Of a DNA stretch of 64,000 nucleotides, positions 6,249 through 37,491 are shown in pieces (the first letter of the stretch is position 1; every line of letters begins with the position of its first letter). The stretch is from contig NC_134032.1 in assembly GCF_964204645.1 (NCBI RefSeq), positions 3,248,175 to 3,312,174 of the forward strand. Direction: 5' to 3'. The stretch is from Tubulanus polymorphus. Its lineage: Eukaryota; Animalia; Nemertea. The notes beneath the pieces are model-generated. The model was not told the origin of the DNA, ran no database searches, and was given only the letters and a program-made list of their open reading frames with translations. The translations under genes were made by a program, and so were the position numbers.

Positions 6249-7239
6249 TCAAGCTTTGGCGGCCGAGCTAGCGGATGACTTATTGGTCAGCGGAGTTTGA
6301 CACCTTAACATGTAGGACAACTGGTTTCTGAAATTCGGGCTGCGAATGCAGTAGATATAACCGTTGATCGCGTGTCCGATCACGTGCAGAAGTTGCGCCG
6401 ACGAGTCGAACATGATCAGGGAGTGAAGGAGGCTCGTGCAGGCTAACTTGATGTAATTGTAGAGATCCTGGACGAAGAAATTCACGCAAAACGGTACGTT
6501 CGAAACCAGAAACGATACCGACACGGACATCAGCGTCACCGTCAGTTCTTTCTCTTTCGTGGCTGCGGTCATCTCCGAGGTGGACGCCGCCGCTCGCAGC
6601 AGCGTCATCACGATCGCCGTGTTGAACAGAAACAGGCTCGGTATCGGCAGATAGAATAATAAACTGTTGCTGACGTGCGACCAGATGTCGTACAGAGACT
6701 CGCCTATGTGATTGCTCGACAAACAGGCGAACAGGTCGCAGATTTTGATGGTATCGTAAAACACGTAAGCCGGCCCTCCCCCTAGACGGGCCAGAACGAA
6801 TATAGCCACCGTGATTGCGATGGCTTTTTTCACCGTGCAGAATTCGGTAGCTTTGAACGGGAATAGCACGACGAACGATCGGCGGTCATCGCTATGACCG
6901 TCCAGGTGCCCGCCGTATTCGCGGTGAACAGCCAGGCTTGCATAAGTTTGCAAACGTACTCGTTTTCGTAGCCGTACGCCAAAACGGGTCGCATAAACAG
7001 GTAAACCGTGTCGACGGCCGCTATAGAGCACATGTACCACGAGGCAGAGCTACGCAAGGCCTGACCCCGGCCGCCAACAGGGTCAGGACGTTCCCGACGA
7101 TGCCGATTGCCACAACGACGTAAATAGCGTAACGACCGAGGATGTAAAACATGTTCACGTAGAACGGGTCGCACAGTAAATTCGTCTTGGCCATTTCGCA
7201 AAATTCTGCGGTGAAACCGCCGGCGCTCGCGTTCGTCAT
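6249..7239 (-). pseudogene. Class A GPCR broken by two frameshifts
   Basis: TM1 GIVGN in ORF 7021-7239, TM2-3 (IAAVD...AMTADR) in ORF 6830-7201, TM4-7 (AINGYIY) in ORF 6249-7040: three different frames, breaks near 7058 and 6878. Confidence 0.85.
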
Positions 7240-9022
7240 CCTGGTTGGTCTCGAGATAGTTTAGCTCTTCTAATTCTATAGCTGCTGGAATCGACTTCGT
7301 TCTAAAAAGATTGAGAAAAGAGAATGAAATTATTCGTATACGGAGAGATGTAATTTGTAGCTATCCGCAGATATGGGTGAGTCATGTAACACTGACGGTC
7401 AGCCGCGGGTTCAACGGGATTCGAACCCATTCGAGTCCAACCCCGCGTAGCACGGGCTCAATGGGATTCGACCCCACCTCATCTGGTTTGAGAGTCAAGC
7501 ATGTGTATTACCTCTGCGACTAATCTTTCTCATCAATTCCTTGCGATGTCAATTCAACACGTCCATTTTTTTGATACCGCTGTGTGATACCGCTTTATGG
7601 ACGCTTGACACAATCGAACCGGTGACAGTCAGCTCATTATCGTGAACTAACGAAACGCGAGCCGAATTGAGAGTGTTTAAAGAGACACTTTTATTATACG
7701 AAATAATTCACCAGGTTCTGAATACTGTCTAAAAAGGGTCTACGTACTCAACACCAGCGATGTAAACAAATTAGCGTAATTTTACGTTTCATTGAAACAC
7801 TGAACTCTCAAGTTGGTTTTTACTACAGACCAGGATTCGACAAATCACGATGTAGATCACACATAAATTAATCTGTGGAACTGAGTGAAATTAACCCCAG
7901 ACGAATGCGGAACTGGATTTAAAAGGCAAAATATAGCTGCACAGCAGCGATAACGGGTTTCTGCCTAATTGTTTCATATGTCGAACTGGGAAGCGTACGA
8001 AGATTTCATCGAAATAATTCTAGCCCATAACATATGACTATTGCCAAGAAGCGCAATCTGGGTCAACATTATGCTGGATATGTGGATATGATTTGTCAAA
8101 GCATCGAAGCAATACAGTCCAACTTGTTTATGTCTCAGATGGAGCGCGCGGGACAGGGCCGTCATTATACTGGTGACATCCAAATTACACCTTCACAGCG
8201 CAACGTCTTTCAGTGTGTAAACTCCATCGTACTCGGCATTAAAGGACAGTGAGGAATTGAATTTTAGCCACCTAAGCCCTTGGCTTGATTCGAGCAAAAG
8301 ACCTAACGAACCCGGCAGTTGACTAAATGCACACCTTACGCCCTGTTTGTCTCAAATATGAGTTACAACATGTGACTGAACTGCATGAATTAACAATTCA
8401 ACAATTTCAGTTAATCAATGATTTTATCAAGTTCGTCGAAATCGAAATGTTTTGCCTTTTAAATTCGAGTTAAGATTGTGCAGGAATGTACTCAAGACAA
8501 TGCGGGCAACAGTACAATATGCCGTATAGCCCCCCCCCCCGCCTATGATTAGAGATGTCGGCAGTTTAATATTAATATTTTTAGCGCCTGTTATGCCTAA
8601 TTCTAGTTACACAATGTGTTTGGTTTGAATCAATTGAATTATGTAAATTTCACGCAATAAATGATTATGACAATTATGAAAATGAATGAGTTTTTAATAA
8701 GCTCCAGGTTAACAATGTTTAGAATTCATTTATCGATTGGAAATGAGGAAGTAGCTTCAGTCGAAGCAGTCAGTTGTTTCATTTTTTTTGTGTTCAAATC
8801 GTTGGAAAGCTATGTTAGAGAATCCATTGAAACAAAAACCATCTGTAGAAAGAGCTTTAGAGATGAACAATATCGAGTTTTCGCTTGATATTTGTTATGT
8901 AAGAATTTGATTTTTTTTTCTATAAGGCTTATTCGGTGGAACTGGGATCAGTGAGGTGAATGTTTATCAAGCTCCAGAACGGAACATGCTGAGAACAATA
9001 GCCCAAAATTTTATTCAACGGC

Positions 9023-9143
9023 AGTAATTAGAAAAGTGGGGTTTCATACCAGAGGGCGAGAGGGCGAGACACCACTCATCACCACAAGTAATTTTTTTCC
9101 TAACACTCATTACCACAAGTAATTTTTTTTCCTAATAAATGGG
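9023..9143 (+). repeat. Left terminal inverted repeat
   Basis: Reverse complement of 24710-24831 apart from one substitution and a 1-nt T-run difference; runs into the polB start codon. Confidence 0.95.
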
Positions 9144-12100
9144 GGAGAATGAACACCAACTAGAAAACAATAATGTCAATAAAAATCAATATTATTGTCA
9201 ATATTGTAAAAAAAACATCGATACATCTCATAAAACACGACATGAAAAAACTGCAAATCATATAAAAAATGTAATAGATTTTGAAACTCCAGAAAATTCC
9301 AATGAAAGAAAAGAACGATTAGAAAATATGAATGTGGATGAAATAAAATGTGAAGTTTGTAATGAATTTATAGTAAAAAGGAATTATAATAGACATCTCG
9401 AATCACAAAAACACCACCAAAATTTGAGTAATAATGTTTTAGGAAAAGATTATTTTGATAATAAACCTCAAAAAGTAAAAGAATCAACTTCAAAAACTAA
9501 ATCCATTTCAAATAAACCTTACATGGAAAATGTTAGAAATTATATTGATTCACTAGAAATAAAAGATACAATTGAAATCTTAGAAACATTACATAGTAAA
9601 ATTGGTCCTGCAGCTATTATATTTAGATTTTTTAAAGGTACAACAATAGAAGATTATAGTAAATTTAATGAAATAATAGAAAAAATACTAGATTTGATAA
9701 CAGATGTTGAATATCCAAAAATTAGTATCTCTGGGAAAGTAAGTTTTATAAAGTCAGAAGAAAAAATGAATTATAATATTCAAACACACTCTGAAGAAAT
9801 AATTTCAAAAACACAAATAAAAGAGAAGTTAGAAAAAATATTTAATGAATTTAAACGTCATATTGAAGAAAGATATTTTGAGGGTTCTGGCTTAACATTG
9901 AATGAAATAATATATTTAGATTTAAATGTTTATAATACAAAAAGGAATAAAACATCAAAAAGTAATAAAATGTTTAAAAATGATTCAAACTTTACAACAG
10001 AAAAGGATATTAAAGCATCATCTTATATTAAATTACCATTTACAACAAAAGCAGTAATAAATGTTCAAAATGAAGATAATAAATGTTTTCTATGGTCAAT
10101 TATTAGTTGTTTACACCAAACAGAAGATACGACGCATAGTTTTAGAATAACAAATTACCGGAAATATGAAACATTATATAAAATTGATCAATATCCAGTA
10201 ACTATAAAAATGATTCCTAAAATAGAAAAAATTAATAATTTAAAAATAAATGTATTCGAATTAATGCAATTACCAAAGACAAAAGGTGAAAATATTAAAG
10301 ATTATACATTGGAAGCTTTATATTTAACAGAATATTATGATGATGAAAATGCTATAGATTTGTTATATTACAAAAAAGATGAAAATGAACATTATATGTG
10401 GTTAAAACAAATTGATTTATTCTTTAGAACAACAGAAAGTGATCATCATCGTAAAATTTATCTATGTAGAAAATGTTTATCTAAATTTATGACTGAGAAT
10501 ACATTATTAAAACATAAAGAATTATGTGATAATAAAGATTTTTGTAAATTAATAATGCCAACAGAAAAAGATTATGAATTGAAATTTCCTAATCATAAAT
10601 TTAAAAATATTGTTCCATTTGTAATTTATGGGGATTTTGAATCGTTGAATAAAGAATTAACTGATCAAGATAGAAAAGAAATATATAACAAAAAGCAATT
10701 ATTAAAATCAATGGATAAAGGAAGTGAATTAAATGAAGATATAATTCAAGACCCACCAATCATAAATACAATTAAAAAAGTTCATCAAAGAGCTGCTGCT
10801 TATGGAATTTATATAAAATCAAATTATCCTGAATTATATGAAAGTCAATATATTTCTTTTAGAGGTGAAAATGTAGTTAATGATTTTTGTGATAAAATTA
10901 TTGAATTAGAAAGTGATTTTGCAAAATTATTAAACAAAAATAAAAGAATAGTTATGACAAAAGAAGATGAAATTGATTTTAATTATGCAACTCATTGTTG
11001 TTATTGTGAAAAACGTTTTTATTCATTTGATAAAAGAGTTAGAGATCATGATCATTTGAATTCAAAATATCGTGGAGCTGCTCATGAAGATTGCAATTTA
11101 CAAGCTAAGAAAGTTAATTTCGTACCAATATTATTTCATAATTTATCAGGCTATGATACCCATCTATTTATAAAACAATTATCGGGAAAATTGGGTGCAA
11201 TTAATCAAGAAATAGAAGAATATAATGCTATGAATGGTGTAAATGTAAGAAAATATGATTTTAAACTATTAGCTAAAACATCTGAAAATTATATTTCATT
11301 TCAATTTGGTTGCATTAGATTTTTAGATTCTTATAGATTTCTAGCAAGTTCATTAGATAATTTATCAAAATCATTAGTTGATAATGATTTTGTTATAACT
11401 CGATATTATTATCCAAATGACCAAGATTTTAAATTACTGAGATATAAAGGCGCAATTCCTTATTCATTTTATAAAACACATGATGATTTTAATGTAACAG
11501 AATTATTAAAAGATCAATTTTATGATAAATTAAAAGAGGAGTATGTGAAAGACGAAGTGTTTAATAGAACATTAAATATTTGGAACCATTTTAAGATGAA
11601 AAATCATGGCGAATTAGTTGATTTATATTTAAAATCAGATGTTATGATATTAGCTGACATATTTGAAAAATTTAGAGAAGTTAATTTGAATCATTTTAAT
11701 GTTGATCCTTGTTATTGTTATTCTAGTCCTGGTTTAACCTGGCAATGTGGTTTAAAATATACAAATGTAGAATTAGATTTATTAAAAGAACCAGATATGG
11801 TTTTATTATTTGAAAAATCAATTAGAGGTGGAATTAGTGGTGTTATGGGAGATAGGTATTTTAAAGCAAATGATGAATATAAATTATTATATATTGACGC
11901 CAATAATTTATATGGTTGGGCAATGATGCAACCTCAACCATATAAAAATTTTATATTAACAGAAGTTGAAAATGGTGATAAAACTGATTGGGAAAACGCA
12001 ATTGCGAGTTTAAAAGATGAAGCACCAATTGGTTATTTCTTTGTAGTTGATTTAGAATATCCTGAAAATATAAAGTTTAAAACAAGAAACTTACCTTATT

Positions 12101-14203
12101 GCCCAGAACATTTAACTGTAGATGATAGTTATTTAAGTGAATACCAGAAGAAAATAAAACCGAAAGATCATGTTTTTACAGAAAAATTAATACTTACTCA
12201 AAATGATAAATACAATTATATTGTTCATTATAGAATGTTAAAATTTTATCTAAAACAAGGAATGAAATTAAAGAAAGTACATAGATATATTGAATTTAAT
12301 CAATCGAAGTGGTTAGAAAAATATATAGATTTCAATACTCAACAGAGAACCATATCAAAAACAGATTTTGAAAAAGATTTCTTCAAATTAATAAATAATA
12401 GTTTTTATGGTAAAACATGTGAAAATATTAGAAATAGAAATGATATTGAATTAGTGAATAATTCTGAAAGATTAAGACATTTACAATCAAGTCCTAGACA
12501 TTTAGGAAATAAAAGATTTGAAGATTATTTAACAGCAGTTAAATTAAAAAGAACATCATTAAAATTTAATAAACCTATATTTATAGGTTCAACTGTTTTG
12601 GAAATATCAAAATTATTGATGTATAATTCTTATTACAATGTTTTGCAGCCACTTTTTGGGGAAAAACATATAGAAATATTATATTTTGATTCTGTAACGG
12701 CTGACACCCCAATATTATTAAAATGTAATAATAAAATATTGGTAAGAAGAATTTCAGAAATAATTCCTAATCAAAATAAATCTTATATTTCATATGGTGA
12801 AAAAGAACTAATACAAATAAATGGTTTAATGGATGTTTGGACAAGAAATGGATGGAAAAAATTAAAGAATATTATTAGACATAAAACAAATAAGAAAATC
12901 TATAGAGTTAGAACTAAATTAGGATTTGTAGATGTTACTGAAGACCATAGTTTGATTAAACTAAATGGTGATGAAATAAAACCAACTGATATAAAAATTG
13001 GAGATGAATTATTACATAAAAGATTTTTCCCAAGAATGAATCATATGTCATTTGATGAAATAATTAATAATACTTATAATATAGAACCCGAAACATTGGA
13101 AGAAAAAGAATATTTTATCAAAGGATTTTTCATGGGTGATGGTTCAGCAGGTGTGTATAATTATGTTAGTGGAACTAAATATTGTTGGTATTTATGCAAT
13201 CAAGACTTAAAATTATTAGAAAGAATTACGAAATTCTGTGAAGAAGTTTATTCACATAAAACATTTAGAATCATGGATGTTATGAAATCATCAGCAGTTT
13301 ATAGAATACTTATAAATAATCCTAAAGATTTTGCTATAGAATATAATGATGAATTCTATATTCATGCAATAGTGAAAAGTAATACTTCGACAAAAGAAAA
13401 GATAGTTCCAGATTATGTATTGAATGCAAAAAAATAATTTAAGAAAATGGTTCTTCATTGGATTATATGCAGCAGATGGTTCAAAAAGTTTCAAAACAAT
13501 ATCTTTAGCTCAAAAAGGAAAAGTTGCTATATCAGGATTGAATATATTATGCACTTCATTAGGATTTAATATGAATATTGGATTGATTAAATCTAAACCA
13601 AATTGCTTTAATTTAAGCCATGTAGAAAATGAGTTAACTGAAGAAGTTAAAGATTTATTTGAAATATATAACCCAACGGATTATGTTTATGATTTATCAA
13701 CTGAAGATGGTACATTTAACTGTGGATTTCCATTAATAGCGGTCAATACTGACGCCTACATACTAAAAATCAAGACAAATGACATAACAAAAGACTTAAA
13801 AACATTAAAACATCATTTTGATTTTAGCAATTATCCTAAAGATCATGAATTGTTTAGCAATGATAATAAAAAGATTCCTGGTAAATTTAAAGATGAATTA
13901 GGGGGTGATGAAATGATTGAATTTGTTGGGATAAGAAGTAAAATGTATAGTTACAGAACAAAAGATCATGAAGCTAAAAAGTTAAAAGGAATAACAAAAC
14001 ATGTGGTTGATAAACATATAGAATTTCAAGATTATATAAAGTGTTTATATAAATCAATTGTAATGAAACACAAAATGAATTGTTTAAGATCAGAAGATCA
14101 TGAGATGTACATTAATGAAGTTGAAAAAACTAGTTTAAATCCATTTGATGATAAAAGGCATATTTTAGATGATGGTATAAAAACATTACCTTATGGTTAT
14201 TAA
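9139..14203 (+). CDS. Protein-primed family B DNA polymerase with N-terminal zinc fingers, endonuclease VII-like insert and an intein; +1 frameshift at A7 (13428-13434)
   Basis: YGDFES (ExoI), FHNLSGYD (ExoII), YIDANNLYG (motif A), KLINNSFYGK (motif B), YFD//TDA (motif C split by intein), KLKGI; CCYC...RDHDH...GAAHEDCN EndoVII-like motif. ORF 13424-14203 supplies the C-terminus. Confidence 0.95.
12691..13747 (+). mobile_element. Intein with LAGLIDADG homing endonuclease in PolB motif C
   Basis: Starts SVTADTPIL, block B VDVTEDHSL, endonuclease motifs GFFMGDGS and GLYAADGS, block F VYDLSTEDGTF, ends AVN followed by +1 Thr; excision restores YFD-TDA. Confidence 0.93.
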
Positions 14204-15513
14204 AATGGATCTATATCATCAAACTCGAAATCACTATTGGCTTCTTCATTTTCATTTAATTGTTCAGGTTCTTCTTCCATTCCATTTTTCTCATTTAAAT
14301 AAAGTTCTATCTTGTTCCACATTTCATCTCGCTCTCTTTGTTTCTTTTTGTTTGTTAATTCATCAAATGGAATTATAATATCTAGGTTTAAATAATTTAC
14401 AATCTTATTTAAAAAGAATTCATAATTTATTGAATCTGTTATTCTATTTTCCAAATGATACATTAATATTTGTTTAAATATTTTTTTTATATTTTCCATA
14501 TCTTCTTCTGTTAATTTAGGTTTTTCATAATAATCGTTAAATAATAAATATAAATACATTTTCTTTTGTTTTGTGTTAAATGTTGGTGGAATAATTGTTT
14601 TTATAATATCTTTTTTAGTTATTTCACCATTTTTATTTTCTATTATTTTCATTTTTTCAAGCCATTGCATATATTCTGGTGTATGATCTTCTATAGAAAA
14701 TATTTTAAAAATTTCATCTAGATAATTTAATTTTGGTTCTATGAGAAAATTTCTAGTTTTTTCTTCACCCCATAAATTCTTTTGCCATCCACATTCAACA
14801 CAAAATAACACAGTACCTTCTTGCCTTAAGGTCGCATAAATACATTGTGGGCATTTTTGTTTATAATTTACTAGTAATAGATCTTCATTAAGCTCTTGGT
14901 ATTTTCTTACGTTTTCTTTATGTTTTATTGTTCTATTATGTAGATTTGAATTACTTGTTGTAATAATCAATTTACAATATTTACAATAATATGTTTTTCT
15001 TGTTAATTCATTATATTGTTTTTCTAACTTTTCAACTGTTTCTTCATTATCTGGTAACGTTTTCTCATATTTTATTTTTTCTAATAAATTATTTTTTCTT
15101 GCATTGAATTCAGTTTCAAATTTATTAGAAATTTTATCTTTATGTACTTTACGAAATTGATGATTCTCCCAATCTTCTATATTTTCAGGGTTATATTTTA
15201 TTCGACAAGGCTCACAGAAATAATCGTTTATATTATCCTTATCATAGAATAAGAAAGGTCTTTTCCAAATAATTTCAGGTTCAACTTCAACAGAATTATT
15301 ATTACTTTCGTAACTGTCAACATTATCTATTAAGTTATTATTTTTACACTTCTCTAAATGTTTTTTGAAATAATTTCTAGAGAATGTTTTATTACAATTT
15401 GGACAGTTTATTTTAGGGGGTTTATAATTTTCATCATGTTTTTTCATATGTCGAGCCATATTACTTTTTCTTAGAAGTTCACCACAAATTTCGCATGCTA
15501 TCTTCTCATCCAT
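14200..15513 (-). CDS. Multi-zinc-finger protein with a C-terminal poxvirus VLTF3 (A2)-like late transcription factor domain
   Basis: Four Cx2C...H fingers, then zinc ribbon CPQC-x13-CVECG and IFKQIL...SINYEFFLNKI...DEMWNKI, matching by eye the VLTF3 pattern (vaccinia A2 IFKHLV...[11 protein letters not shown], recalled from memory). Confidence 0.75.
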   Translation of the reverse strand: MDEKIACEICGELLRKSNMARHMKKHDENYKPPKINCPNCNKTFSRNYFKKHLEKCKNNNLIDNVDSYESNNNSVEVEPEIIWKRPFLFYDKDNINDYFCEPCRIKYNPENIEDWENHQFRKVHKDKISNKFETEFNARKNNLLEKIKYEKTLPDNEETVEKLEKQYNELTRKTYYCKYCKLIITTSNSNLHNRTIKHKENVRKYQELNEDLLLVNYKQKCPQCIYATLRQEGTVLFCVECGWQKNLWGEEKTRNFLIEPKLNYLDEIFKIFSIEDHTPEYMQWLEKMKIIENKNGEITKKDIIKTIIPPTFNTKQKKMYLYLLFNDYYEKPKLTEEDMENIKKIFKQILMYHLENRITDSINYEFFLNKIVNYLNLDIIIPFDELTNKKKQRERDEMWNKIELYLNEKNGMEEEPEQLNENEEANSDFEFDDIDPF

Positions 15514-15581
15514 TTATTAAGGAAAAATTTTATTAAAATTAATTTTTAGTGATGAGCGGTAATTTTTTTATGTTATAAATA

Positions 15582-16331
15582 ATGGTAGAATTAAAAGAAT
15601 ACAGAATATTTGTTGATTCTAGAAAACTTACAAATTATAAATCACATAATTTACTAATACAATTAGATAGAGAATTCAAGAATTGTGTAGATTTAAAATT
15701 AGTAAATATAAGTTTATGTAACTCATTTTATAATATAACAGCTAAAAGTCTTGAACATTTATTTTTTTCAATCAAGAGTAAGGATAAATGGAATTATCTA
15801 TTTTTAAAACCAGGATTATATAATTTAAATACATTAGCGCAGGAAATTAATAAAAAAGCTCGGATCAAATTAGGTAGTGATGCTGAATTTAACATTAGAT
15901 TTTTGAAAAGTGATAATTCTAATAAAATGAAGATAAGGTTAGCTCATAATGAAAAATATCAATTTTCAGTTAAAAAACCTATAGCTAAACTATTAGGAAT
16001 TACACCAGATAAATATTATTCAAATGTTGATACTACACCAAATATAATACCTTTTACACACTTTTATATTTATTGCAATTTAATCGATCCTACAAAAACA
16101 TTCGAAGCAACTAAAGATATAACTTGTAATTCTGGTTTACTAATTTTACCAATAAAGAATGTTAAACAATTTGGAACTCAAATAAATTATAATTTAGCTG
16201 AATGTGATTTCAAACCTTGTATTCCTCAATTTAATAATTTTAAATTAGAAATAAGAAATCATAATGGATACTTAATTGATTTGAATAACTTTCCTGTAAT
16301 TTATGAATTAGTTATGAGATGTAAAGAGTAA
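15582..16331 (+). CDS. Minor capsid (penton-like) protein
   Basis: IFVDSR at the start, NSFYNI, PGLY, C-terminal NGYLIDLNNFP: pattern and size typical of Polinton/virophage minor capsid proteins. Confidence 0.75.
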   Translation: MVELKEYRIFVDSRKLTNYKSHNLLIQLDREFKNCVDLKLVNISLCNSFYNITAKSLEHLFFSIKSKDKWNYLFLKPGLYNLNTLAQEINKKARIKLGSDAEFNIRFLKSDNSNKMKIRLAHNEKYQFSVKKPIAKLLGITPDKYYSNVDTTPNIIPFTHFYIYCNLIDPTKTFEATKDITCNSGLLILPIKNVKQFGTQINYNLAECDFKPCIPQFNNFKLEIRNHNGYLIDLNNFPVIYELVMRCKE

Positions 16332-16347
16332 TTTTTCACCTATATAA

Positions 16348-16671
16348 ATGAATATAACTGTTGGACCGAGTATATGTTTTGGGTTTGATTTTAAACGTGA
16401 GAAAGATTATATCAAAAATATTGCATTTTCTAATGAAACAACATTTGAGTATGAAACAACAATAGATAAAGAAACTTTAAATGTAGAAAAGATTACTAAT
16501 TTAATTAGAGAATCTTTAAGATTTTATGAATTAGATGAAGATTTTATAATCGATGATATTAAGAAAATAATAATTGAAATATATACAAATGAAACTAGTA
16601 ATAAAATAAATGTTGAATTAATCATAAATAAGTTAACTAAATATTTTGAAGATAGTAATTTTTTTGATTAA
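16348..16671 (+). CDS. Hypothetical acidic viral protein
   Basis: 107-aa ORF preceded by the element's TAAATG motif, packed between neighbours. Confidence 0.65.
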   Translation: MNITVGPSICFGFDFKREKDYIKNIAFSNETTFEYETTIDKETLNVEKITNLIRESLRFYELDEDFIIDDIKKIIIEIYTNETSNKINVELIINKLTKYFEDSNFFD

Positions 16672-16674
16672 TAA

Positions 16675-16896
16675 ATGAGTGATAATAAGTGGATAATAAC
16701 TGGATTATATAATGGCGCATTACTATCAGTTGGAACGGTTGGTTATTCAATGGTATTAAAAAAAGTATTCAAAATGGGAAGTGTTAATGTTGATAGATTT
16801 GATATAAATGATATTTTAAAGTTAACATTAGCAGTTACTTTATCTAATTTAACTATTGATTATTTGGAAAAACAAAAATATATTCCTCCCATATAA
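16675..16896 (+). CDS. Small hydrophobic viral protein
   Basis: 73 aa, two hydrophobic segments, TAAATG start. Confidence 0.7.
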   Translation: MSDNKWIITGLYNGALLSVGTVGYSMVLKKVFKMGSVNVDRFDINDILKLTLAVTLSNLTIDYLEKQKYIPPI

Positions 16897-16921
16897 ATGT
16901 GTAATTTTTTTTATTAAATAA

Positions 16922-17344
16922 ATGGCTTCTGCAATTATAACTATTATAGGATCGGCAATTGTTAACGCTTTAGCATTTACTGGTGGTGGTTATTTATTTA
17001 AACATATTGATAAAAATAGTTCATTAGGAGAACAAAGAAGACATAACTTAGCGTTAGAGAAATACAATAAAGCTGCAGAAGAATATAGAGAAAAGAGGCA
17101 AAACTATATGGATTACATCAATAAAGAATTATATGATCAGAAGATTTCACATAGAGATTTTCAATCAGTTGATGATGCAATGAGTTTATATAACGCAGTA
17201 ACAAATAAAGAAAAATTACATCTATACAAACCTAAATTTTCAGATTATTATACCCCAAGTAAAGAACAACAGAAATATGAAATAATATGGATTTTAGGTG
17301 GAACAGTTATTGTTATATTTGTTGCTTATAAGTTTACTAATTAG
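16922..17344 (+). CDS. Viral membrane/coiled-coil protein
   Basis: Hydrophobic N-terminus (AIVNALAFTG), RRHNLALE coiled region, C-terminal TM; TAAATG start. Confidence 0.75.
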   Translation: MASAIITIIGSAIVNALAFTGGGYLFKHIDKNSSLGEQRRHNLALEKYNKAAEEYREKRQNYMDYINKELYDQKISHRDFQSVDDAMSLYNAVTNKEKLHLYKPKFSDYYTPSKEQQKYEIIWILGGTVIVIFVAYKFTN

Positions 17345-17363
17345 TAATTTTTTTTCTAAATAA

Positions 17364-17798
17364 ATGGAAGATAAAGTTGATAGTATTGATATTATTCCTC
17401 ATGATATAAATAAAACTAAATTAAAAACATATTTAGAAAAACAAATATTAGAATTTGAAAGTGACTTAAAGATAAAAAAGAAAAAATATTTAAAAAGTAA
17501 AATTATATATTATTTGATTATAAGTGGTTCGGTTACAATTAGTTCTGTAATAACATTTTTAGCAATATTCAGTCCATTAACACCTTTAGCTATATCAATT
17601 GGTGTATTAGGATTAAGTTCAAGTGTTTTAACTGGTATAAGTTCAAAATTTAATATAAAAAGTAATAAAGAAAAAATTAAAACTAATATAAAAGAAATAA
17701 ATAAATTAAAGAACACACTAGATTATATCATAAGTTTAAATGGTCATATAACAGTTGAAGAACAAGATAAATTATTAAAAGAATTAATAAATTATTAA
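17364..17798 (+). CDS. Viral two-TM protein
   Basis: 144 aa, central hydrophobic hairpin flanked by coiled segments; TAAATG start. Confidence 0.7.
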   Translation: MEDKVDSIDIIPHDINKTKLKTYLEKQILEFESDLKIKKKKYLKSKIIYYLIISGSVTISSVITFLAIFSPLTPLAISIGVLGLSSSVLTGISSKFNIKSNKEKIKTNIKEINKLKNTLDYIISLNGHITVEEQDKLLKELINY

Positions 17799-17815
17799 TT
17801 TTTTTAATTATATAA

Positions 17816-19204
17816 ATGGTAGATAGTTTTCCAAAAGCTTTCCAATATAATAAATCAATTAAATATAATATTCCGGCAATAGATTTTAATAAAGATATTA
17901 CATATAGCAATGAAGTTTTAAATTCATTAATTGATTTATATATTTATGTTACTGAAACTAATAATTTTAATGCAAAGATGGAAAATATATTTCATGTATA
18001 TTTAATTAATTTTAAAAAATTGAAAGATGAAAAACAATGGTTATTAAAATCTAATATGAAGTATTGGCAGAATCAATTAAATTTTGCTGTTTATTGTGCA
18101 ACAACAGGATGTGGAATTAGTTGGAATGATCATTTGAATAATTCTAAATATAAATTAATTCAAAGTTTATTTAGATTTCATACATACTTTCAAATCAGAA
18201 TAATATTAAATGAATTAGAGTGCGCTTTACCAGGATCTAGGTATTTTAAAGAATTAGATAATAATATTAATTTATCTAAGTTTTATAAGATTTGTAATGA
18301 ATTTAATATAGATATAAATAATTCTGATTTTAGAACAAAAATTGGAACAATAAGATCACTTCCTTGCCCTAAAAAGATTGCAGAATATTGTGCACTTCCC
18401 ATACCATCTAATAGTTTTTATAATATCTATAATAATAAATTAGGTTATGGTAAAATAGAAACAAAGGATTTAGAAACATTAAATTTCAATAAATTACCGA
18501 AATTTTATGATAATTTAAAACAAGAAAACAATAATGGTTGGGTATATTTTATTTTAGAAAATAGTGAAGGTTTTACTAAATCAGGTATAGAAAGAATAAA
18601 TCAATCTATTAGAACTTATTTGATTTGTATTCTAGGATCACAAGTTGAAACAAGATCACCGATAATTGGAAATTTGAATACATCATTCGATACACAAAAA
18701 CAATTTAAAGTATTATTTGAAGATTCCATACATAATGATAAAAATAGATCGATTCCAGAAAACATTATAAGATATCAAAATTATTTAGATAAATCTCATG
18801 TAAGACTTAATTATTGTATAGGCCCTAATCTATTAATTATTTCTAATGATTTAGTATTAAAGATGGGAAACATAATTGGTTATAATAATCTAATTAAAAC
18901 TGCAACAATAAATAATTCATTTGGGTTAAATGATATAAATAAAAAGATTATTACTGCTCCAAAATTAATGGAAGGTGAAAAAAATAAAAAACACATTCAA
19001 TCAACAGAAACTAAAACTAATAATATTAAATTAAATAATGATTCTAAAATAAAAGATTACAATACATCAGAAAATAATAGAACTGATAAAATTCAACATG
19101 ATATAATTAAAACTGATAATGATAATAAATCACATGAAAATACTAAATTAGCTATAACTTGTATAGGAATTGTAATCGGAGGAATATTATATTTTAAATT
19201 TTAA
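17816..19204 (+). CDS. Hypothetical viral protein with C-terminal TM anchor
   Basis: 462-aa ORF with WQNQLNFAVYCATTGCGIS motif; TAAATG start. Confidence 0.8.
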   Translation: MVDSFPKAFQYNKSIKYNIPAIDFNKDITYSNEVLNSLIDLYIYVTETNNFNAKMENIFHVYLINFKKLKDEKQWLLKSNMKYWQNQLNFAVYCATTGCGISWNDHLNNSKYKLIQSLFRFHTYFQIRIILNELECALPGSRYFKELDNNINLSKFYKICNEFNIDINNSDFRTKIGTIRSLPCPKKIAEYCALPIPSNSFYNIYNNKLGYGKIETKDLETLNFNKLPKFYDNLKQENNNGWVYFILENSEGFTKSGIERINQSIRTYLICILGSQVETRSPIIGNLNTSFDTQKQFKVLFEDSIHNDKNRSIPENIIRYQNYLDKSHVRLNYCIGPNLLIISNDLVLKMGNIIGYNNLIKTATINNSFGLNDINKKIITAPKLMEGEKNKKHIQSTETKTNNIKLNNDSKIKDYNTSENNRTDKIQHDIIKTDNDNKSHENTKLAITCIGIVIGGILYFKF

Positions 19205-19220
19205 TTTTTTCATTATGTAA

Positions 19221-20664
19221 ATGGATGTAGAAGGTGGAGAAGATATTGGAATGGATGACATGGGAAATGATAATGAAGGATATATTGATAATGATTATAA
19301 TAATGCAGGCGCTAATATTGATAATGATGAATCAGCATATAATTCTAATTTAACTACACCTCAATATATTGACAAAGCACGTTCAAAGATAAGTATTGAA
19401 AATGAAGTACCAGAAATAACAGAAAAAGAATACAATTATAATGAAATTATTCATGAATTTAAACCAATATTAAAAAAATCTGGTTTCAATATAACAGATA
19501 ACGGTATGGATAAATTAGCAAAAGATTTGAAATATTTAAATGGTGATTATTATTGGAAATTGAAAGGCGACTATTATTTTAAGATTTCAAATCTTAAAAG
19601 TAGCAGTAATGATAAAATAATAACACAATCAACTTCTAATTTATTAGAACAATCTAGAATTAAGAAAATCAATAATGATGTTATAACTGATGTTACAAAA
19701 AAAGAAAGAACTGTTAATTTTAAAGAATTTAAACAAAGAAATGCTAAATTTTTTGATATAATTAATGCAAATTTAAGACAAAAAAAAAATTCCTAAAGAA
19801 GTTATTAATTCCAAAACTAGTAAACCTAATTCAAGCGAAGTTCAAACTGAAAAACTTTTACCAAATGGATTACTTGATGCAACAGATCAACAATTAGAAG
19901 ATTTAAATATATTTTCTGATAAAACAATTAGAGAAATTATTAGTATAAGAAATGAAACTGATAAAATTGCACATAATAAAAGTATAAGAGATATTAAAAT
20001 TAACAATTTAGAAAAAGAATTAACTGATAAAAATAAAGAAATAGAACAATTAAAGTCTGATTTAGATCGTCAAGTAATTGATGAAATAGAATATAGGCAA
20101 AAAGAATCACGTTTAGAAAAAGAAATAGATGATTTAAAATATAACAAAGAATTACAAAAAGAAGAAATAGATACATTGTTAAAATCATATGATTATAATA
20201 TTAATAGATTAAAAGTTATTTTTAAAGATTTGTTGATTAAACCAAATTCTGAAATATCATTAAAAGACAGAATAAGATTATTATTTAAATTAGAAGGAAT
20301 AACAATTCTTTCAATTCTAACAGCTGTAACTATGTTATTTACAACAATTGGTTTAGCAATATCAAATGCTTTGAAATCTACTTCTACTCCCACTCCCAAT
20401 AAACCAGATAAACCTCCAGGTAATAATTCTATACAAGATAAAGTTAAGGATGGTTTAAAGAAATTAGCAAAATATTTATGGGAACTATCAAAGAAATCTG
20501 CTGCAGCATTGCCAGGAGTTATTGCTTCAATTGTTGGTTTTATATTGAAATCTGCTGGGAATATTCTTAACTTTGCTGCTGAACATATTATTTTATTTTT
20601 AATCACAGTTGTAAGTGCTATTATTTTTGGGTTAGTAAATATGATATCAAAAAATATCAAGTAA
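19221..20664 (+). CDS. Coiled-coil/multi-TM viral protein, +1 frameshift at A10 (19780-19789)
   Basis: The frame of ORF 20176-20664 is stop-free back to ~19790; removing one A joins it to ORF 19221-19796. No separate TAAATG before 20176. Confidence 0.8.
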
Positions 20665-20710
20665 ACCATGATATCAAAAAATATCAAGTAAACCATGATA
20701 TCAAAAAATA
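20641..20710. repeat. 27-bp tandem duplication (~2.5 copies) over a stop codon
   Basis: ATGATATCAAAAAATATCAAGTAAACC repeated. Confidence 0.9.
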
Positions 20711-20735
20711 AATAATTAATTTTTTTGTTAAATAA

Positions 20736-21851
20736 ATGAGTGGGAGTTATATAAGTCCTTCGAAGAATCATAGAATATCTAATGCTATTAAAGCAGAAAG
20801 ATCACATCATATAATTACTCATAACCCTTCAAATATTAATCCCGATGAAACTTTATATGTGAGGATTCCTCGATTAACACAAAATACTTTTTATGTTCCA
20901 AATAGTATTTATTTATCAGCCGATATAAAAGTAACTGGTCATGATAATAATTATGTTGTCGATAATGTTGGAAGATATTTGATTAAAAAGTTAACAATAA
21001 AGATTGGTCCAGAAACAGTTTTCTCATTAGATGATTATAATTTATTTATGTATAATAAAGATTTATGGTTAACTAAAGAAAATAGAAATAATATGATATT
21101 TCAGGGTATTCAATCGGAAAACCATAATAAATTAAGATCTGAAGCCAATAACGCAGTAGTAAATAATAGCGTAGATAATTTGATTAAAAAGATTTATGGA
21201 AGTAAATATAAAATTCCATTAGACTTTGAATTGATAAATAATAATGCACCTTTATATAAATACGCAATTCAAGAAGATATTATATTTGAGATAACATTTG
21301 CTCCTGTAAATGAAATTGTATTATCTAGCGTTGTTAAAGATATGGGTTATAAATTATCGAATATATGTTTAGAATATAACACAGTAACTAATGAAAATAT
21401 TGCTAGCACAATTCAAACTCAATACAATCAAGGATTTTCATTATTATATGATTATATTGATAAATTTAAAACTGTAACTATTAATGCAAATGATGAAATA
21501 ATTAATGAGAATATTAACTTTCCTAGAAGATCTATTAAAGGTATATTAATGTTTTTTACCATTGCAACATATTCTAATGGCGCAATAAATGTTGATAATT
21601 ATTATAATCCTGAAATAACAAAAGTAGAAATAACTATCGAAGGAATAGCAAATAAAATATTTTGTCAAGGAATGAGAATGATTGATCAATGGCCAGAAAT
21701 TAGAAAACATTTTATGAATGAAAAAGTAAAATCATCTGAAAATTGTAATATTAATCAAATTGATTATTATACCGGCAATAAATATGCATTATGGTTAGAT
21801 TTTAGAACAACAGAGGATAATTCATTACATGGTTCTGGAATATATGGATGA
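20736..21851 (+). CDS. Major capsid protein (double jelly-roll), probably C-terminally truncated
   Basis: ITHNPSNI...LYVRIP, VDNVGRYLIKKL, YYNPEITKVEITIEG, LWLDFRT...LHGSG resemble invertebrate Polinton MCPs; stops three codons after LHGSG. Confidence 0.75.
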   Translation: MSGSYISPSKNHRISNAIKAERSHHIITHNPSNINPDETLYVRIPRLTQNTFYVPNSIYLSADIKVTGHDNNYVVDNVGRYLIKKLTIKIGPETVFSLDDYNLFMYNKDLWLTKENRNNMIFQGIQSENHNKLRSEANNAVVNNSVDNLIKKIYGSKYKIPLDFELINNNAPLYKYAIQEDIIFEITFAPVNEIVLSSVVKDMGYKLSNICLEYNTVTNENIASTIQTQYNQGFSLLYDYIDKFKTVTINANDEIINENINFPRRSIKGILMFFTIATYSNGAINVDNYYNPEITKVEITIEGIANKIFCQGMRMIDQWPEIRKHFMNEKVKSSENCNINQIDYYTGNKYALWLDFRTTEDNSLHGSGIYG

Positions 21852-21921
21852 GTTGAAAAATATTAAAAGATCAAAATTACTATTTAGATTACAACACCCA
21901 TTTAAATATGAATTTATTTAA
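21841..21921 (+). pseudogene. Orphan 3' gene fragment, possibly the packaging ATPase C-terminus
   Basis: Reads YMDELKNIKRSKLLFRLQHPFKYEFI* with no TAAATG start; resembles from memory the tail of Polinton A32-like ATPases. Confidence 0.4.
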
Positions 21922-21929
21922 ATTCAATT

Positions 21930-22152
21930 AGTTTGTTAATCTAGTTGAATTCTAGTTATTGGTAGTTGTAACAAAAATCAAATAGATTTAACAATATTTT
22001 AACTAGCTTGTTAATCTATTTTAATTCTAATTACATTCTAGTTGAATTCTAGTTGTTAGTAGTTGAAACAAAAATCAACTAGATTTAACAATATTTCAAC
22101 TAGCTTGTTAATCTAGTTGAATTCTAGTTACATTCTAGTTAAATTCTAGTTG
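21930..22152. repeat. CTAGTT/AACTAG-rich intergenic repeat, ~100-bp unit duplicated
   Basis: Many CTAGTTGAATTCTAGTT units in direct and inverted arrangement. Confidence 0.8.
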
Positions 22153-22185
22153 CAACATCACACAATTAATTTTTTTGTTATATAA

Positions 22186-22791
22186 ATGGGAGGTGAAAAG
22201 AAAATAAAATCTAAAAATGGTGATGTTCCAATTGAAAAAACTTTAGATGATTTAGGAATAACAGAAACAAAATTAACTCCAGATGATGGTGCTTTAAATA
22301 ATGTTACAACAAATAATAATTATGAATATTATCTTTATTGTAAACATCAATTAGAAATATTAATAGCATCTGGAAAATGTAAAAATTTTGTCGGTAAAAA
22401 TTTAACTTATAATGAATTAGACACAATGAAATCAGATGAAATTATTAGATTATTTAAGATTTATGAAGCCGCGAGAACAGCTAGAATTAATGACGCGATA
22501 TCAGAAAATGTAGTAAAAGGTTATAGTAAATTATGTAATTATATACTACCAATTGAAAATGAAAATAGATTATATTCTGATTTAAAAAATGATTATTTAG
22601 TTATGACTGAATTAAATAAATGGATTGGATATTTATCATTTCAATTAGGTGGATTTATGACATTATTATCAACTGGAGTTATAACATTTTCAAATATTGA
22701 AAGTAAAGATATTTCTATAATAAATGAGCGAGGTGAAAGAAGTGAAGGAATTAACTGTGAAGAAAAAACCGAGAACTCAGAAACAAATTGA
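22186..22791 (+). CDS. Hypothetical viral protein
   Basis: 201 aa, TAAATG start, hydrophobic segment near the C-terminus. Confidence 0.75.
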   Translation: MGGEKKIKSKNGDVPIEKTLDDLGITETKLTPDDGALNNVTTNNNYEYYLYCKHQLEILIASGKCKNFVGKNLTYNELDTMKSDEIIRLFKIYEAARTARINDAISENVVKGYSKLCNYILPIENENRLYSDLKNDYLVMTELNKWIGYLSFQLGGFMTLLSTGVITFSNIESKDISIINERGERSEGINCEEKTENSETN

Positions 22792-23092
22792 ATGGTCTCG
22801 GCAATTAGGAATTAAATCACAAGAATATAAAAAAGCTGTAAAAGAAAAAATAAGTAATAAAAATGTTAATAAAAATGGTGAAAATATTGTTATTTCTACT
22901 CCTTCTGATAATAGAATATTTGATAAATATTTATATTTTACAGTTGGATTTGTAATTGTATTCATTTTGATTGGGTGTAATTGGTATAAGAAATCAAATA
23001 AAATTCATGATATTAGTAATTCTGAACCAACTGCTATCAAAAATGAAAGTACTTCTGAAATTCCAAAATTGATAATAAAAAAAATGGATTAA
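22724..23092 (+). CDS. Basic single-TM viral protein
   Basis: 122 aa, KKPRTQKQIEW basic N-terminus, TM YLYFTVGFVIVFILIG; TAAATG start inside the previous gene. Confidence 0.7.
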   Translation: MSEVKEVKELTVKKKPRTQKQIEWSRQLGIKSQEYKKAVKEKISNKNVNKNGENIVISTPSDNRIFDKYLYFTVGFVIVFILIGCNWYKKSNKIHDISNSEPTAIKNESTSEIPKLIIKKMD

Positions 23093-23455
23093 TATTTTAG
23101 AAAAAAAGCAAAAAAAAAAATAATTGAATATCTCACTACTTTTGTCTATCACTGTGGAGCAATTAAATTGTCCAGATAAGTCATTTCGGATTCTAGATAT
23201 TCATTATTTTATTAATTTATTTTGTTTTTATTTGAATATTTGAATTTGAATTTGTTAATCAATTAACATAGTAATTGATTACTAATTTGATTAAAAATTA
23301 TATCATAATGAAGTTAAAAATACATAATTCATTTATCAGTTTTCATTCTTACATTCTTTTCATTCGGAATAATCTATAATTTCAAATTTCACATATTTTT
23401 TTAGCACCAACAACATTTACTTAGGTGTTTTAGCTAAGTATATAAGGTAATTCAT

Positions 23456-23720
23456 TCAACCACTGGAGTAGCTCTGGCCAGCAGAGGCATTTTGAAAATG
23501 CACCTTCGTCCACTCTCCGGGTTTCTCCTTCGGTTTCGAATTTCGAGGTTGGTAGAAATTACATTAGGCGCCTTTAATATAATGTGATTTCTACCAATCA
23601 TTGAAGGAGATCCCGGTTGACGTGGGTCGCCGGGGGTGTAAGTAGAAATGACGGGGGATAAGCGTCCCGTGGCGCCTTTCAATAATGGGATGCTTATCCC
23701 CTGAAAACTCTGTAGGTTGA
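23456..23720 (+). ncRNA. Predicted structured non-coding RNA of the element
   Basis: Closing stem 23456-69/23707-20, long interrupted hairpin 23499-23640, 19-bp hairpin 23652-23703; ~12 G-U pairs on + strand; shared loop GGCGCCTTT(C)AATA. Confidence 0.65.
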
Positions 23721-24075
23721 GGATAGGGCAATTTTGCTAAAACTTACCGTAAAAACATTGAAATATTCCTTTTAATCACGAGAGAATGATGACTATCCTC
23801 CTGTCGTCACGGCCGAGCTAATTTAAATAAACCTCGTTTTCAGCAACTAATGAAAACGCAGTAATTCAATACCAGCTAACTGGTTTGTGTGTGTTGTATG
23901 TACTGCGTGCTTATTATATAACAACAACGTTGTGCAACACCTGTTTGATTGATCAATATTCAAATAAAGCACTCTCTTATAATAATATGTAACAGATGTA
24001 CTGTATGATTATAGTTGTTTATAAAACGACTAAGGTCATTTTGGATTCTAGATATTCATTATTTTTATTTCTTAT

Positions 24076-24402
24076 TTAATCAACAATTTCTAAATCATGA
24101 TGACCGTCTTCATTTTTCCCATGATATATTATTTTAAATCCTACTAAATCTTTCAATTCCTCCATACTCAATGAAACCCATTTATCGGGTAAAAACACTT
24201 TAAATTCTCGTGATGTACTAACATTACAGTAGCTTAAATTAGCTGATTCTTTCTCTCCATATTTAGTTTTTATCTTTTCTAATTTCAATATTTTATGTTC
24301 AATTTCTTTTGTAACATCAACTAACTTTTTTATTTCAAATTGTTTTTTTGCTGGTTTTATTCTGTTATTTATTGTTGCTAAGAATGCTTTTCTATCTCCC
24401 AT
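24076..24402 (-). CDS. Hypothetical basic viral protein
   Basis: 108 aa, preceded by a copy of the TIR motif CTCATCACCACAAGTAAT...CCTAATAAATG. Confidence 0.7.
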   Translation of the reverse strand: MGDRKAFLATINNRIKPAKKQFEIKKLVDVTKEIEHKILKLEKIKTKYGEKESANLSYCNVSTSREFKVFLPDKWVSLSMEELKDLVGFKIIYHGKNEDGHHDLEIVD

Positions 24403-24510
24403 TTATTAGGAAAACAAATTACTTGTGGTGATGAGTAATTACTTCCCTTGTATATAACAAGCTCACAGCATCTATTTATCCGGGTACAGTTGACACACGC
24501 GCAGCTGTTG

Positions 24511-24714
24511 TTACGCGCACTCACTGTTTATGTATGTCACAATTTTACTACGTAATATTTCTAAAATTTCAATTGCATCTTTTATTTCTAATGAATCAAT
24601 ATAATTTCTAACATTTTCCATGTAAGGTTTATCGATGTATTTTTTACAATATGGGCAATAATATTGATTTTCATTAACATCACTTTTTTCTGTTTGGAAC
24701 TCACTGTCTCCCAT
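24511..24714 (-). CDS. Short paralogue of the pPolB N-terminus
   Basis: NQYYCPYCKKYID-KPYMENVRNYIDSLEIKD matches PolB aa 1-28 joined to aa ~126-155. Confidence 0.65.
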   Translation of the reverse strand: MGDSEFQTEKSDVNENQYYCPYCKKYIDKPYMENVRNYIDSLEIKDAIEILEILRSKIVTYINSECA

Positions 24715-24831
24715 TTATTAGGAAAAAAAAATTACTTGTGGTGATGAGTGTTAGGAAAAAAATTACTTGTGGTGATGAGTGGTGTCTCGCCCTCTCGCCC
24801 TCTGGTATGAAACCCCACTTTTCTAATTACT
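24710..24831 (-). repeat. Right terminal inverted repeat
   Basis: Mirror of 9023-9143, followed by TSD AACGGC. Confidence 0.95.
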
Positions 24832-25447
24832 AACGGCAGCACATCAAATTCGTGAAGTCCGAAGAGGACGGCATCGATAACAGGTTTCTAATAAAATTTC
24901 TCATATGTTTATTTACAGTACCAAGAAAAGCTAAACATTTACAATACGCTACAAATAGGTATGCACGTGTCCACAAAATGCAAACCTCGTCTCAAAGGTA
25001 GAAAATATTCTATTTAGTATTGGTGAGTTTACAAAACTTGCACAAAACCTGACATGACGATTGGGAGAAATTGAGACCGACCAAGCAATGAGCCCCGACG
25101 ACCGCGCACCGATAATACAATAAAACATGAGGGCGTAACCTGGAAACGGATATGCCATGACACTTGAAGGCGGACAAATAACACAAAATACAACTACACC
25201 AGAGAACGACAATTCGGTGAAATAAGTTAACACGAAATATGTAGAGTACTGACTAAAGAACGGTTTAGACAAAAGCTTGACTACAATAATATAGAATACA
25301 TGCTGAAAAGCTGAAATAACGGGTTTTCCGCCTCGTTGGGTTAGATATCTACCATCATGCGTAAAGAGTTTGGTTGAAAGCGGCAGAAAACCCTGATAAG
25401 AGGTCGTTTCATCGCTGGGTACATCCAGCGGATCTCCGGCCTTCATA

Positions 25448-37489: not shown

Positions 37490-37491
37490 CC

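What the first reader, a model, noticed from the sequence alone, without database searches (positions are those of the whole stretch)
9023..24831. Endogenous Polinton-like virus that looks wired for poxvirus-type transcription: candidate animal virophage of a pox-like helper
Seen: intact ends, TAAATG before almost every gene, a VLTF3-like gene, a PolB intein, no introns, no RNA polymerase or capping enzyme. Known: Polintons are generally assumed to use host nuclear Pol II, whereas virophages carry their giant-virus helper's late promoter and are transcribed in its factory. Inference: this element is silent until a pox-like cytoplasmic virus infects the cell, then recruits the helper's late machinery with its own VLTF3, which would also imply such a helper virus infects this host. 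Polinton-like satellites of entomopoxviruses have been reported, so novelty must be checked against those.
Basis: partly seen in the sequence, partly recalled or inferred. Interest (0 to 1): 0.93.

Follow-up and report, generated by a model that had tools for sequence, protein, structure and literature searches.

The report
Polinton clade with poxvirus-style promoters
This is a damaged copy of a virus-like jumping element (Polinton/Maverick) in an invertebrate genome, from a branch whose genes start at poxvirus-style promoter sequences; this copy also carries a poxvirus-like late transcription factor, so the branch likely depends on a co-infecting pox-type virus, not yet found in this host, to express its genes.

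Summary
Observation confirmed, with corrections. 9023-24831 is a Maverick/Polinton insertion (6-bp target duplication, terminal inverted repeats, empty site in reads, many sister copies). 12 of 13 genes start at TAAATG, 10 behind a T-run: the poxvirus late-promoter layout. The motif is not a composition effect: it marks one capsid clade (37 of 43 core genes, loci of 20-44% GC) and is absent from the other polintons fetched (0 of 29 AT-rich, 1 of 144 GC-rich), which keep a purine at -3. The VLTF3 call holds, and its only non-polinton hit was an entomopoxvirus-type A2. Corrections: this copy is defective (polymerase frame broken, capsid-to-ATPase deletion, no integrase); the intein is a giant-virus allele, not pox, and one clade member lacks it; TAAATG is also twofold enriched in non-pox giant viruses; no helper or transcript was seen. 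Best reading: a virophage-like lineage transcribed by a pox-type helper polymerase (0.5). The scan reported the same idea in another genome (e1-8580207). [quoted passage not shown]

The parts
9017..9022 (.). Target-site duplication, left copy (AACGGC)
   Evidence: empty-site joint 9016->24832 in one contig of run X1
9023..9228 (.). Left terminal inverted repeat; holds the polymerase promoter and its first ~30 codons
9139..14203 (+). Protein-primed DNA polymerase B, in two frames (9139-13437, 13424-14203); broken inside the intein; TAAATG start
   Evidence: PF03175 E 2.5e-18
12691..13747 (+). Intein with LAGLIDADG-type endonuclease in polymerase motif C; same site as giant-virus PolB inteins; frame broken
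   Evidence: TIGR01445 E 1.3e-7
14200..15513 (-). Zinc fingers + A2-type zinc ribbon + VLTF3 domain (poxvirus late transcription factor 3-like), 437 aa; TAAATG start
15582..16331 (+). Conserved 249-aa gene, probable minor capsid protein (label by size and position only); start TAAATAATG
   Evidence: family of 23 ORFs, the window's included; function inferred
16348..17798 (+). Four small genes (107, 73, 140, 144 aa), each with a TAAATG start; the 73- and 140-aa genes are conserved across the loci
17816..19204 (+). Conserved 462-aa gene of unknown function; TAAATG start
   Evidence: 69% to L001; hits in 25 loci
19221..20664 (+). Conserved coiled-coil/membrane gene, split over two frames here (one 485-aa ORF in L001); TAAATG start
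20736..21851 (+). Major capsid protein, truncated at 371 of ~415 aa; TAAATG start
   Evidence: 575 homologues; weak Capsid_N hits in 17 of 37 members
21802..21921 (+). Remnant (last ~40 codons) of the A32-type packaging ATPase at the internal deletion
   Evidence: tblastn with L001 ATPase, E 1e-8; PF04665 in L001
22186..23092 (+). Two overlapping conserved genes (201 and 122 aa); TAAATG starts
23450..23740 (+). GC-rich non-coding island between converging gene blocks that folds into long stems; role unknown
   Evidence: z -8.6 on +, -4.7 on -; no Rfam family
24076..24402 (-). 108-aa gene, possible phi29-type single-strand binding protein (lead only); TAAATG promoter copied from the terminal repeat
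   Evidence: 74% to L001; Atlas score 0.89
24625..24831 (.). Right terminal inverted repeat (its 24511-24714 ORF is a by-product of the duplicated polymerase start)
24832..24837 (.). Target-site duplication, right copy

Best explanation
This is an internally deleted copy of a multicopy Maverick/Polinton family whose clade starts its genes at a poxvirus-type late promoter and likely has them transcribed by the RNA polymerase of a co-infecting pox-type cytoplasmic virus, as virophages do with their giant viruses. SHOWN: insertion with target duplication; many sister copies; T-run + TAAATG at gene starts across one capsid clade; a VLTF3/A2-like gene; no polymerase of its own; integrase and ATPase in relatives. 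INFERRED: (1) complete copies integrate with their rve integrase and lie in host chromosomes; (2) on infection, element DNA reaches the cytoplasmic factory (how is unexplained); (3) the helper polymerase and its late factors start at the AAA of TAAATG, so the T at -3 is not in the mRNA and the poor host-type start context does not matter; (4) the element's own VLTF3 would bias that machinery to its promoters; (5) pPolB copies the DNA, which is packaged in the element's capsid. This particular copy could only be moved in trans by complete sisters.
For: Motif at 12 of 13 starts against 36 of 605 other ATGs. Clade-specific: 37 of 43 core genes in 15 loci against 0 of 29 (AT-rich) and 1 of 144 (GC-rich) in other polintons; one branch, SH-aLRT 99, 15 of 60 rows (quick tree); kept at 36-44% GC. 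Not stop-start coupling: TAA is the upstream stop in 1 of 67 cases, and the motif is at head-to-head and terminal genes. T at -3 in 86%, against A in 79% of AT-rich sister genes. Layout matches the vaccinia late promoter as reviewed in PMC5294985, and TAAAT as initiator in PMC6211774. Entomopoxvirus control: 8 of 22 starts, commonest heptamer the same as in the clade. VLTF3: among 1.84 billion representatives only 4 hits at E<=1e-3, three element-type and one (P0283) 63% identical to an entomopoxvirus-type A2; a profile of the four element-type proteins finds entomopox A2 at E 1e-12 but not the L049 VLTF3-like gene. Ranks 1, 3 and 4 of the fold search are poxvirus A2. Two more clade lineages probably carry the gene (equal contig lengths for P0285/P0121 and P0282/P0027; inferred). 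Precedent: virophages share late promoters with their helpers (PMC6428243); Polinton-like viruses occur in entomopoxvirus occlusion bodies (PMC11296320).
Against: No helper virus was found or searched for in this host (no genome held), and no transcript or start site was seen. TAA-ATG is also twofold enriched in non-pox giant-virus loci (91 of 845; 6 of 16 in L087, 5 of 14 in L091). The intein points to contact with Mimivirus-like giant viruses, not poxviruses, and L007 lacks it. VLTF3-like genes occur in polintons without the motif (L049) and in other small viruses. The VLTF3-A2 likeness is short (36% over 74 aa), both sides are AT-rich, the fold model was built with three entomopox rows in its alignment, and non-pox VLTF3s score almost as well (E 9e-5 against 8e-6). 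None of the 16 clade loci reached a VLTF3 gene (they are fragments). No poxvirus RNA polymerase subunit was seen among the clade ORFs scanned. How a chromosomal copy with only late-type promoters escapes the nucleus is unexplained.
Confidence: 0.5

Rival explanations
1. Helper-dependent, but the helper is a non-pox nucleocytovirus (Mimivirus-like, asfuvirus-like or an undescribed order) whose late genes also start at a TAAAT-type initiator next to the ATG.
For: The intein clade of five pPolBs nests among giant-virus PolB inteins at the same site, which needs shared infection at some time. Some non-pox loci have 30-38% TAA-ATG starts. Long hairpins at converging genes in 4 of 10 clade junctions against 0 of 45 in other polintons recall the hairpin termination of Mimivirus and Sputnik (recalled, not from a call).
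Against: The best VLTF3 matches are pox-type. The intein was acquired once and spread among polintons, including ones whose promoters are unknown, so it need not mark the present helper. Hairpin counts rest on three independent cases and AT-rich DNA.
Confidence: 0.2
2. Autonomous nuclear element: host RNA polymerase II, steered by the element's captured VLTF3, starts at or near a TATA-like TAWATAAATG box; the motif came from a poxvirus-like donor but no helper is needed today.
For: Polintons integrate and are generally taken to be nuclear; many starts read TATATAAATG or TAAATAAATG, which resemble a TATA box. The family has spread to many chromosomal copies. It explains expression from an integrated copy without an escape step.
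Against: A TATA box lies about 30 nt before a Pol II start (established knowledge); here it abuts the ATG, so the mRNA would lose its start codon. T at -3 in 86% of genes is unfavourable for host-type initiation, and sister clades keep a purine. Poly(A) signals after stops are not enriched (17 of 88 against 18.1 in shuffles), though they are not enriched in the sister clades either, so this test does not discriminate.
Confidence: 0.22
3. The motif is an artefact of AT-rich DNA, tight gene packing (stop-start) or an overlapping poly(A) signal.
For: The element is 24% GC; AATAAA overlaps the start in 22 of 43 clade genes.
Against: AT-rich sister polintons have 0 of 29; GC-richer clade members keep it; TAA is the upstream stop in 1 of 67; the motif is present where no upstream gene runs in the same direction.
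Confidence: 0.03
4. The motif is a relic of a past helper-dependent stage and is no longer used.
For: This copy is decayed in several genes.
Against: The motif is kept across capsids only ~50% identical and across 20-44% GC, and on variable accessory genes too (63 of 76 ORFs), which implies continued selection.
Confidence: 0.05

Closest known systems
Mavericks/Polintons (Polintoviricetes; animal 'adintoviruses', PMC8502044)
   Same: pPolB (PF03175), terminal inverted repeats, 6-bp target duplication, capsid gene; rve+chromo integrase and A32 ATPase in close relatives L001, L002, L005.
   Different: Clade-wide poxvirus-type promoter; A2-like VLTF3; giant-virus intein in some members; no cysteine protease found in the window or among the relatives' ORFs scanned. 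This copy lacks integrase and most of the ATPase. 'Promoter' and 'intein' do not occur in the main text of PMC8502044.
Entomopoxvirus-associated Polinton-like viruses AHEV_PLV1/2, CBEV_PLV1 (PMC11296320)
   Same: Small Polinton-type elements proposed to parasitise a poxvirus; gene exchange with poxviruses.
   Different: Those are ~12 kb, found physically in occlusion bodies, have adenovirus-type proteases and divergent capsids, and no rve integrase. The paper has no mention of promoter, VLTF3, TAAAT or intein. Their sequences were not on hand, so they may carry the same motif.
Virophages mavirus and Sputnik (Lavidaviridae)
   Same: No RNA polymerase; share the late promoter of a cytoplasmic helper (PMC6428243); mavirus has pPolB and rve and integrates.
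   Different: Protist hosts, Mimiviridae helpers, different promoter motifs and capsid lineage; dependence is shown by experiment there and only inferred here.
Yeast cytoplasmic linear plasmids pGKL1/2 (PMC6211774)
   Same: pPolB elements with a TAAAN initiator like that of poxvirus post-replicative genes.
   Different: They encode their own RNA polymerase and capping enzyme, have no capsid and do not integrate.

Membership tests
Maverick/Polinton | Protein-primed PolB | tested here: met
   PF03175 E 2.5e-18; frame broken in this copy
Maverick/Polinton | Terminal inverted repeats and 6-bp target duplication | tested here: met
Maverick/Polinton | rve integrase | tested here: inconclusive
   Absent from this copy; present in L001, L002, L005 with capsids 72-77% identical. 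Met for the family, not the copy
Maverick/Polinton | A32-type packaging ATPase | tested here: inconclusive
   Only a 40-codon remnant here; whole in relatives
Maverick/Polinton | Double jelly-roll major capsid protein | tested here: inconclusive
   Weak Capsid_N hits in 17 of 37 members, best E 1e-4; no PDB hit; not folded
Adintovirus (Starrett et al.) | Adenain-type maturation protease | tested here: not met
   No protease family among the ORFs scanned; the loci are fragments and a diverged protease could be missed
Adintovirus (Starrett et al.) | OTU-like domain at the PolB N-terminus | not tested
   No profile for it was run
Poxvirus late promoter | TAAAT(G/A) initiator overlapping the start | tested here: met
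   12 of 13 exact, 13th displaced by 3 nt
Poxvirus late promoter | A/T core with T residues 5-7 bp upstream | tested here: met
   T-run at 10 of 13 starts; T 58-86% at -15 to -11 in the clade
Poxvirus late promoter | Transcription starts in the AAA and gives 5' poly(A) leaders | not testable with these tools
   No RNA reads available
Poxvirus A2/VLTF3 | Zinc ribbon plus PF04947 domain | tested here: met
   PF04947 26.5 bits over cut-off 25; four aligned cysteines; fold matches
Virophage (Lavidaviridae) | Replication depends on a co-infecting large DNA virus | not testable with these tools
   Inferred from promoters only
Virophage (Lavidaviridae) | Virophage-type capsid lineage | tested here: not met
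   Capsid homologues are polinton-type, in animal and metagenome contigs; no virophage family hit. It may work like a virophage but is not filed as one
Entomopoxvirus-associated PLVs | Physical association with poxvirus occlusion bodies; capsid kinship to AHEV/CBEV elements | not testable with these tools
   Their sequences and a host virus sample were not available

The most novel reading that the evidence does not exclude
A whole clade of animal Mavericks are integrating virophages of poxviruses: they captured the poxvirus A2 late factor, switched all promoters to the pox late type, and so record an undescribed poxvirus lineage that infects non-insect invertebrates.
Probability: 0.35. Interest if true: 0.9.

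Novelty: new variant of a known kind. Interest (0 to 1): 0.72.

Why it matters
Whether animal Mavericks are autonomous nuclear viruses, transposons or parasites of larger viruses is an open question with almost no experimental handle. A clade whose promoters differ sharply from its sisters gives one: a simple reporter test and a start-site test can decide whose polymerase reads it. If the helper is pox-type, the elements also point to large DNA viruses not yet seen in these animals, and possibly to an inherited antiviral defence like mavirus in protists.

Tried and rejected
Whole-protein Pfam, NCBIfam, phage tblastn and the word-index search gave nothing for the 437-aa protein; a single-sequence fold was useless (pLDDT 43); only the trimmed domain worked. 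The window's own genome is not held, so copies could not be collected and a helper could not be searched for. Viral-contig scans with the capsid, intein and P0130 found no relatives. Sequencing runs: no RNA holder listed, which says nothing on expression; the small share in organism B was laid and gave only short low-depth pieces, so I draw nothing from it. The read-level view of the deletion junction and of a possible RNA run was not obtained, so the share of complete copies is unknown. Composition, stop-start coupling and poly(A)-signal explanations of TAAATG were rejected. The intein as evidence for a pox helper was rejected. No PDB fold match at E<=1e-3 for the VLTF3 domain. The structured island has no Rfam match, no clean Pol III A/B boxes and no copy in the fetched loci or viral contigs. 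The poxvirus RNA polymerase subunit reported in note e1-8580207 was not seen in the clade ORFs scanned here. TTTTTNT is depleted in coding strands (8 against 15.7 in codon shuffles, 1 of 500 as low); that it is the poxvirus early termination signal is recalled, and I treat this as a weak hint only.
Full report
1. The insertion. The stretch 9023-24831 is 24% GC in a 35-50% GC background. It begins AG and ends CT, is flanked by the 6-bp duplication AACGGC, and has terminal inverted repeats of 108 nt at 99% that extend to about 200 nt and include the polymerase promoter. One contig of run X1 joins 9016 to 24832, the empty site. In raw reads of run X6 (about 12% read) the element's bins have depth 120-950 against 4.9 in one flanking bin, so dozens to perhaps 200 related copies exist at 85% likeness or more; this rests on one single-copy bin. 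The flanks hold rhodopsin-type GPCRs and LTR-retrotransposon remnants, so the host is an animal, likely an invertebrate; I did not determine the phylum.

2. This copy is defective. The polymerase (PF03175) is in two frames, broken inside its intein. The capsid ORF ends at residue 371 where the nearest relatives have 415, and the last 40 codons of the packaging ATPase follow at once. The closest relative, L001 (capsid 77% identical, same gene order), has an rve+chromo integrase and an A32 ATPase in that gap. The gene at 19221-20664 is also split. So the element is a non-autonomous member of a Maverick/Polinton family, not an intact virus.

3. The promoter motif is real and marks a clade. 12 of 13 genes start TAA-ATG and the 13th TAAATA-ATG, against 36 of 605 other ATGs; 10 have a run of five or more T just upstream. 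I fetched the best 80 of 157 related loci by capsid similarity. Grouped by capsid identity of 50% or more, and counting only core genes of near-median length, TAA-ATG stands at 37 of 43 starts (15 loci, window included), against 0 of 29 in 12 AT-rich and 1 of 144 in 39 GC-rich other loci. Over all ORFs of 90 aa or more the counts are 63 of 76 and 4 of 338. The motif-bearing loci form one branch of 15 of 60 capsids with SH-aLRT 99 in a quick tree (20 or so partial capsids were left out); the one row without a scored TAA-ATG, L015, has TAAATG four bases upstream. Members at 36-44% GC keep the motif. TAA is the upstream gene's stop in 1 of 67 cases and the motif stands at head-to-head pairs. Sister polintons have A at -3 in 79% (AT-rich) and a purine in 80% (GC-rich); the clade has T in 86%. 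That fits a polymerase that starts inside the AAA, as poxvirus polymerase does (PMC5294985 and PMC6211774, passages).

4. How pox-specific is it? In two entomopoxvirus-type loci (identified by Pox_Rif, VETF, VLTF3 and MSV199 families) 8 of 22 starts are TAA-ATG, with the same commonest heptamer as the clade. In 80 loci of intein-bearing giant viruses 91 of 845 are, about twice the composition expectation, and single loci reach 6 of 16. So the motif fits poxviruses best but does not exclude another nucleocytovirus.

5. VLTF3. The C-terminal 236 aa of 14200-15513 pass the PF04947 cut-off, and the Atlas puts VLTF3 clusters on top (0.90). Among 1.84 billion representatives four proteins hit at E<=1e-3: three resemble the element's protein, and P0283 is 63% identical to the A2 of an entomopoxvirus-type record. 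Direct comparison gives E 3e-9 over 74 aa to that A2 and E 0.04 to the VLTF3-like gene of L049, a polinton without the motif. A model with pLDDT 80 matches cowpox and two entomopoxvirus A2 models at ranks 1, 3 and 4, with non-pox VLTF3s close behind; the alignment held three entomopox rows, so this is not independent. Two other clade lineages likely carry the gene, judged from equal contig lengths. VLTF3 alone is not new in small viruses (PMC8502044 legend; 10.64898/2026.06.19.733378 passages).

6. The intein. It sits in motif C at the same site as the inteins of giant-virus PolBs, Mimivirus among them; of the best 120 hits four are protein-primed polymerases and the rest RNA-primed ones, none listing a poxvirus-specific polymerase family in its precomputed domains. 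On the N-terminal part, the five pPolB inteins form one branch (99) inside the giant-virus set (FastTree, 106 rows). L007, in the TAAATG clade, has no intein. It shows past contact with giant viruses and spread among polintons; it is no evidence for a pox helper.

7. Mechanism. The reading I commit to (0.5): complete copies integrate; a pox-type cytoplasmic virus supplies RNA polymerase, capping and late factors; the element's VLTF3 would tilt them to its own promoters; pPolB and the capsid module do the rest; deleted copies such as this one ride along. A non-pox helper (0.2) and host Pol II steered by the captured factor (0.22) remain open. The weak point is that an integrated copy with only late-type promoters must first leave the nucleus. 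No transcript, start site or helper was seen.

8. Novelty. Ten literature searches of an open-access library found no paper that describes TAAATG promoters in Polintons. PMC11296320 (parts 1-3 of 8 read, whole text term-searched) reports Polinton-like viruses in entomopoxvirus occlusion bodies but has no mention of promoter, VLTF3, TAAAT or intein; its supplements were not seen and could hold such data. PMC8502044 (sections 3.1 and 3.2 and passages), PMC11161782, PMC10748475, PMC12220804, PMC11071296, PMC11464507, PMC6428243, 10.1101/2024.03.23.586382 and 10.64898/2026.10.13.758929 were seen as passages or term counts only. Subscription journals and Repbase were not searchable. The idea of a poxvirus parasite of this kind is therefore published; the clade-wide promoter switch with an A2-like factor in integrase-bearing animal Mavericks appears undescribed. 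This scan reached the same reading in another genome (e1-8580207), an unchecked note that is not independent support; its report of a viral polymerase subunit was not reproduced in the loci scanned here.

9. Verdict. Real, well supported as a sequence feature, new variant of a known kind, mechanism inferred and directly testable. Interest 0.72.

Noticed in passing
window 23450-23740 (+): GC-rich non-coding island that folds far better than shuffles (z -8.6) and better on + than on -; two long stems share the loop motif GGCGCCTTT. No Rfam family, no clean Pol III boxes. Could be a 3'-end signal between converging genes or a small-RNA precursor.
   Followed up: partly
L002 3687-3853, L003 3043-3209, L005 3120-3278: Long palindromes (30 bp perfect arms in L005) between converging genes in the TAAATG clade; 0 of 45 such junctions in other polintons have one.
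   Followed up: partly
L001 10340-10981, L008 2895-3377: Deoxynucleoside kinase genes in two TAAATG-clade elements, a gene type usual in large DNA viruses.
   Followed up: no
protein cluster of P0131: A polinton polymerase family with 136 members on long contigs has members of 1537 aa and of ~1190 aa, the difference expected for intein-plus and intein-minus alleles in one genome.
   Followed up: no
window 63827-64000 (-): Second fragment of the same polymerase gene, 93% identical, at the window's end.
   Followed up: no
window 21901-22152: 97-nt tandem repeats just after the internal deletion.
   Followed up: no
window 16348-16407 and L001 1333-1392: Two otherwise unrelated small proteins share only their first 20 residues (80% identical).
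   Followed up: no
window 3316-7360, 60896-61971; 35516-38319; 44010-45077; 49266-51000; 53528-55357: Host context: intron-poor rhodopsin-type GPCR genes (7tm_1, Srw-like), LTR-retrotransposon remnants, and 20-nt and 33-nt minisatellites.
   Followed up: no
window 46068-46779: Nested inverted repeats with 30-nt units, probably a fold-back or MITE-type element.
   Followed up: no
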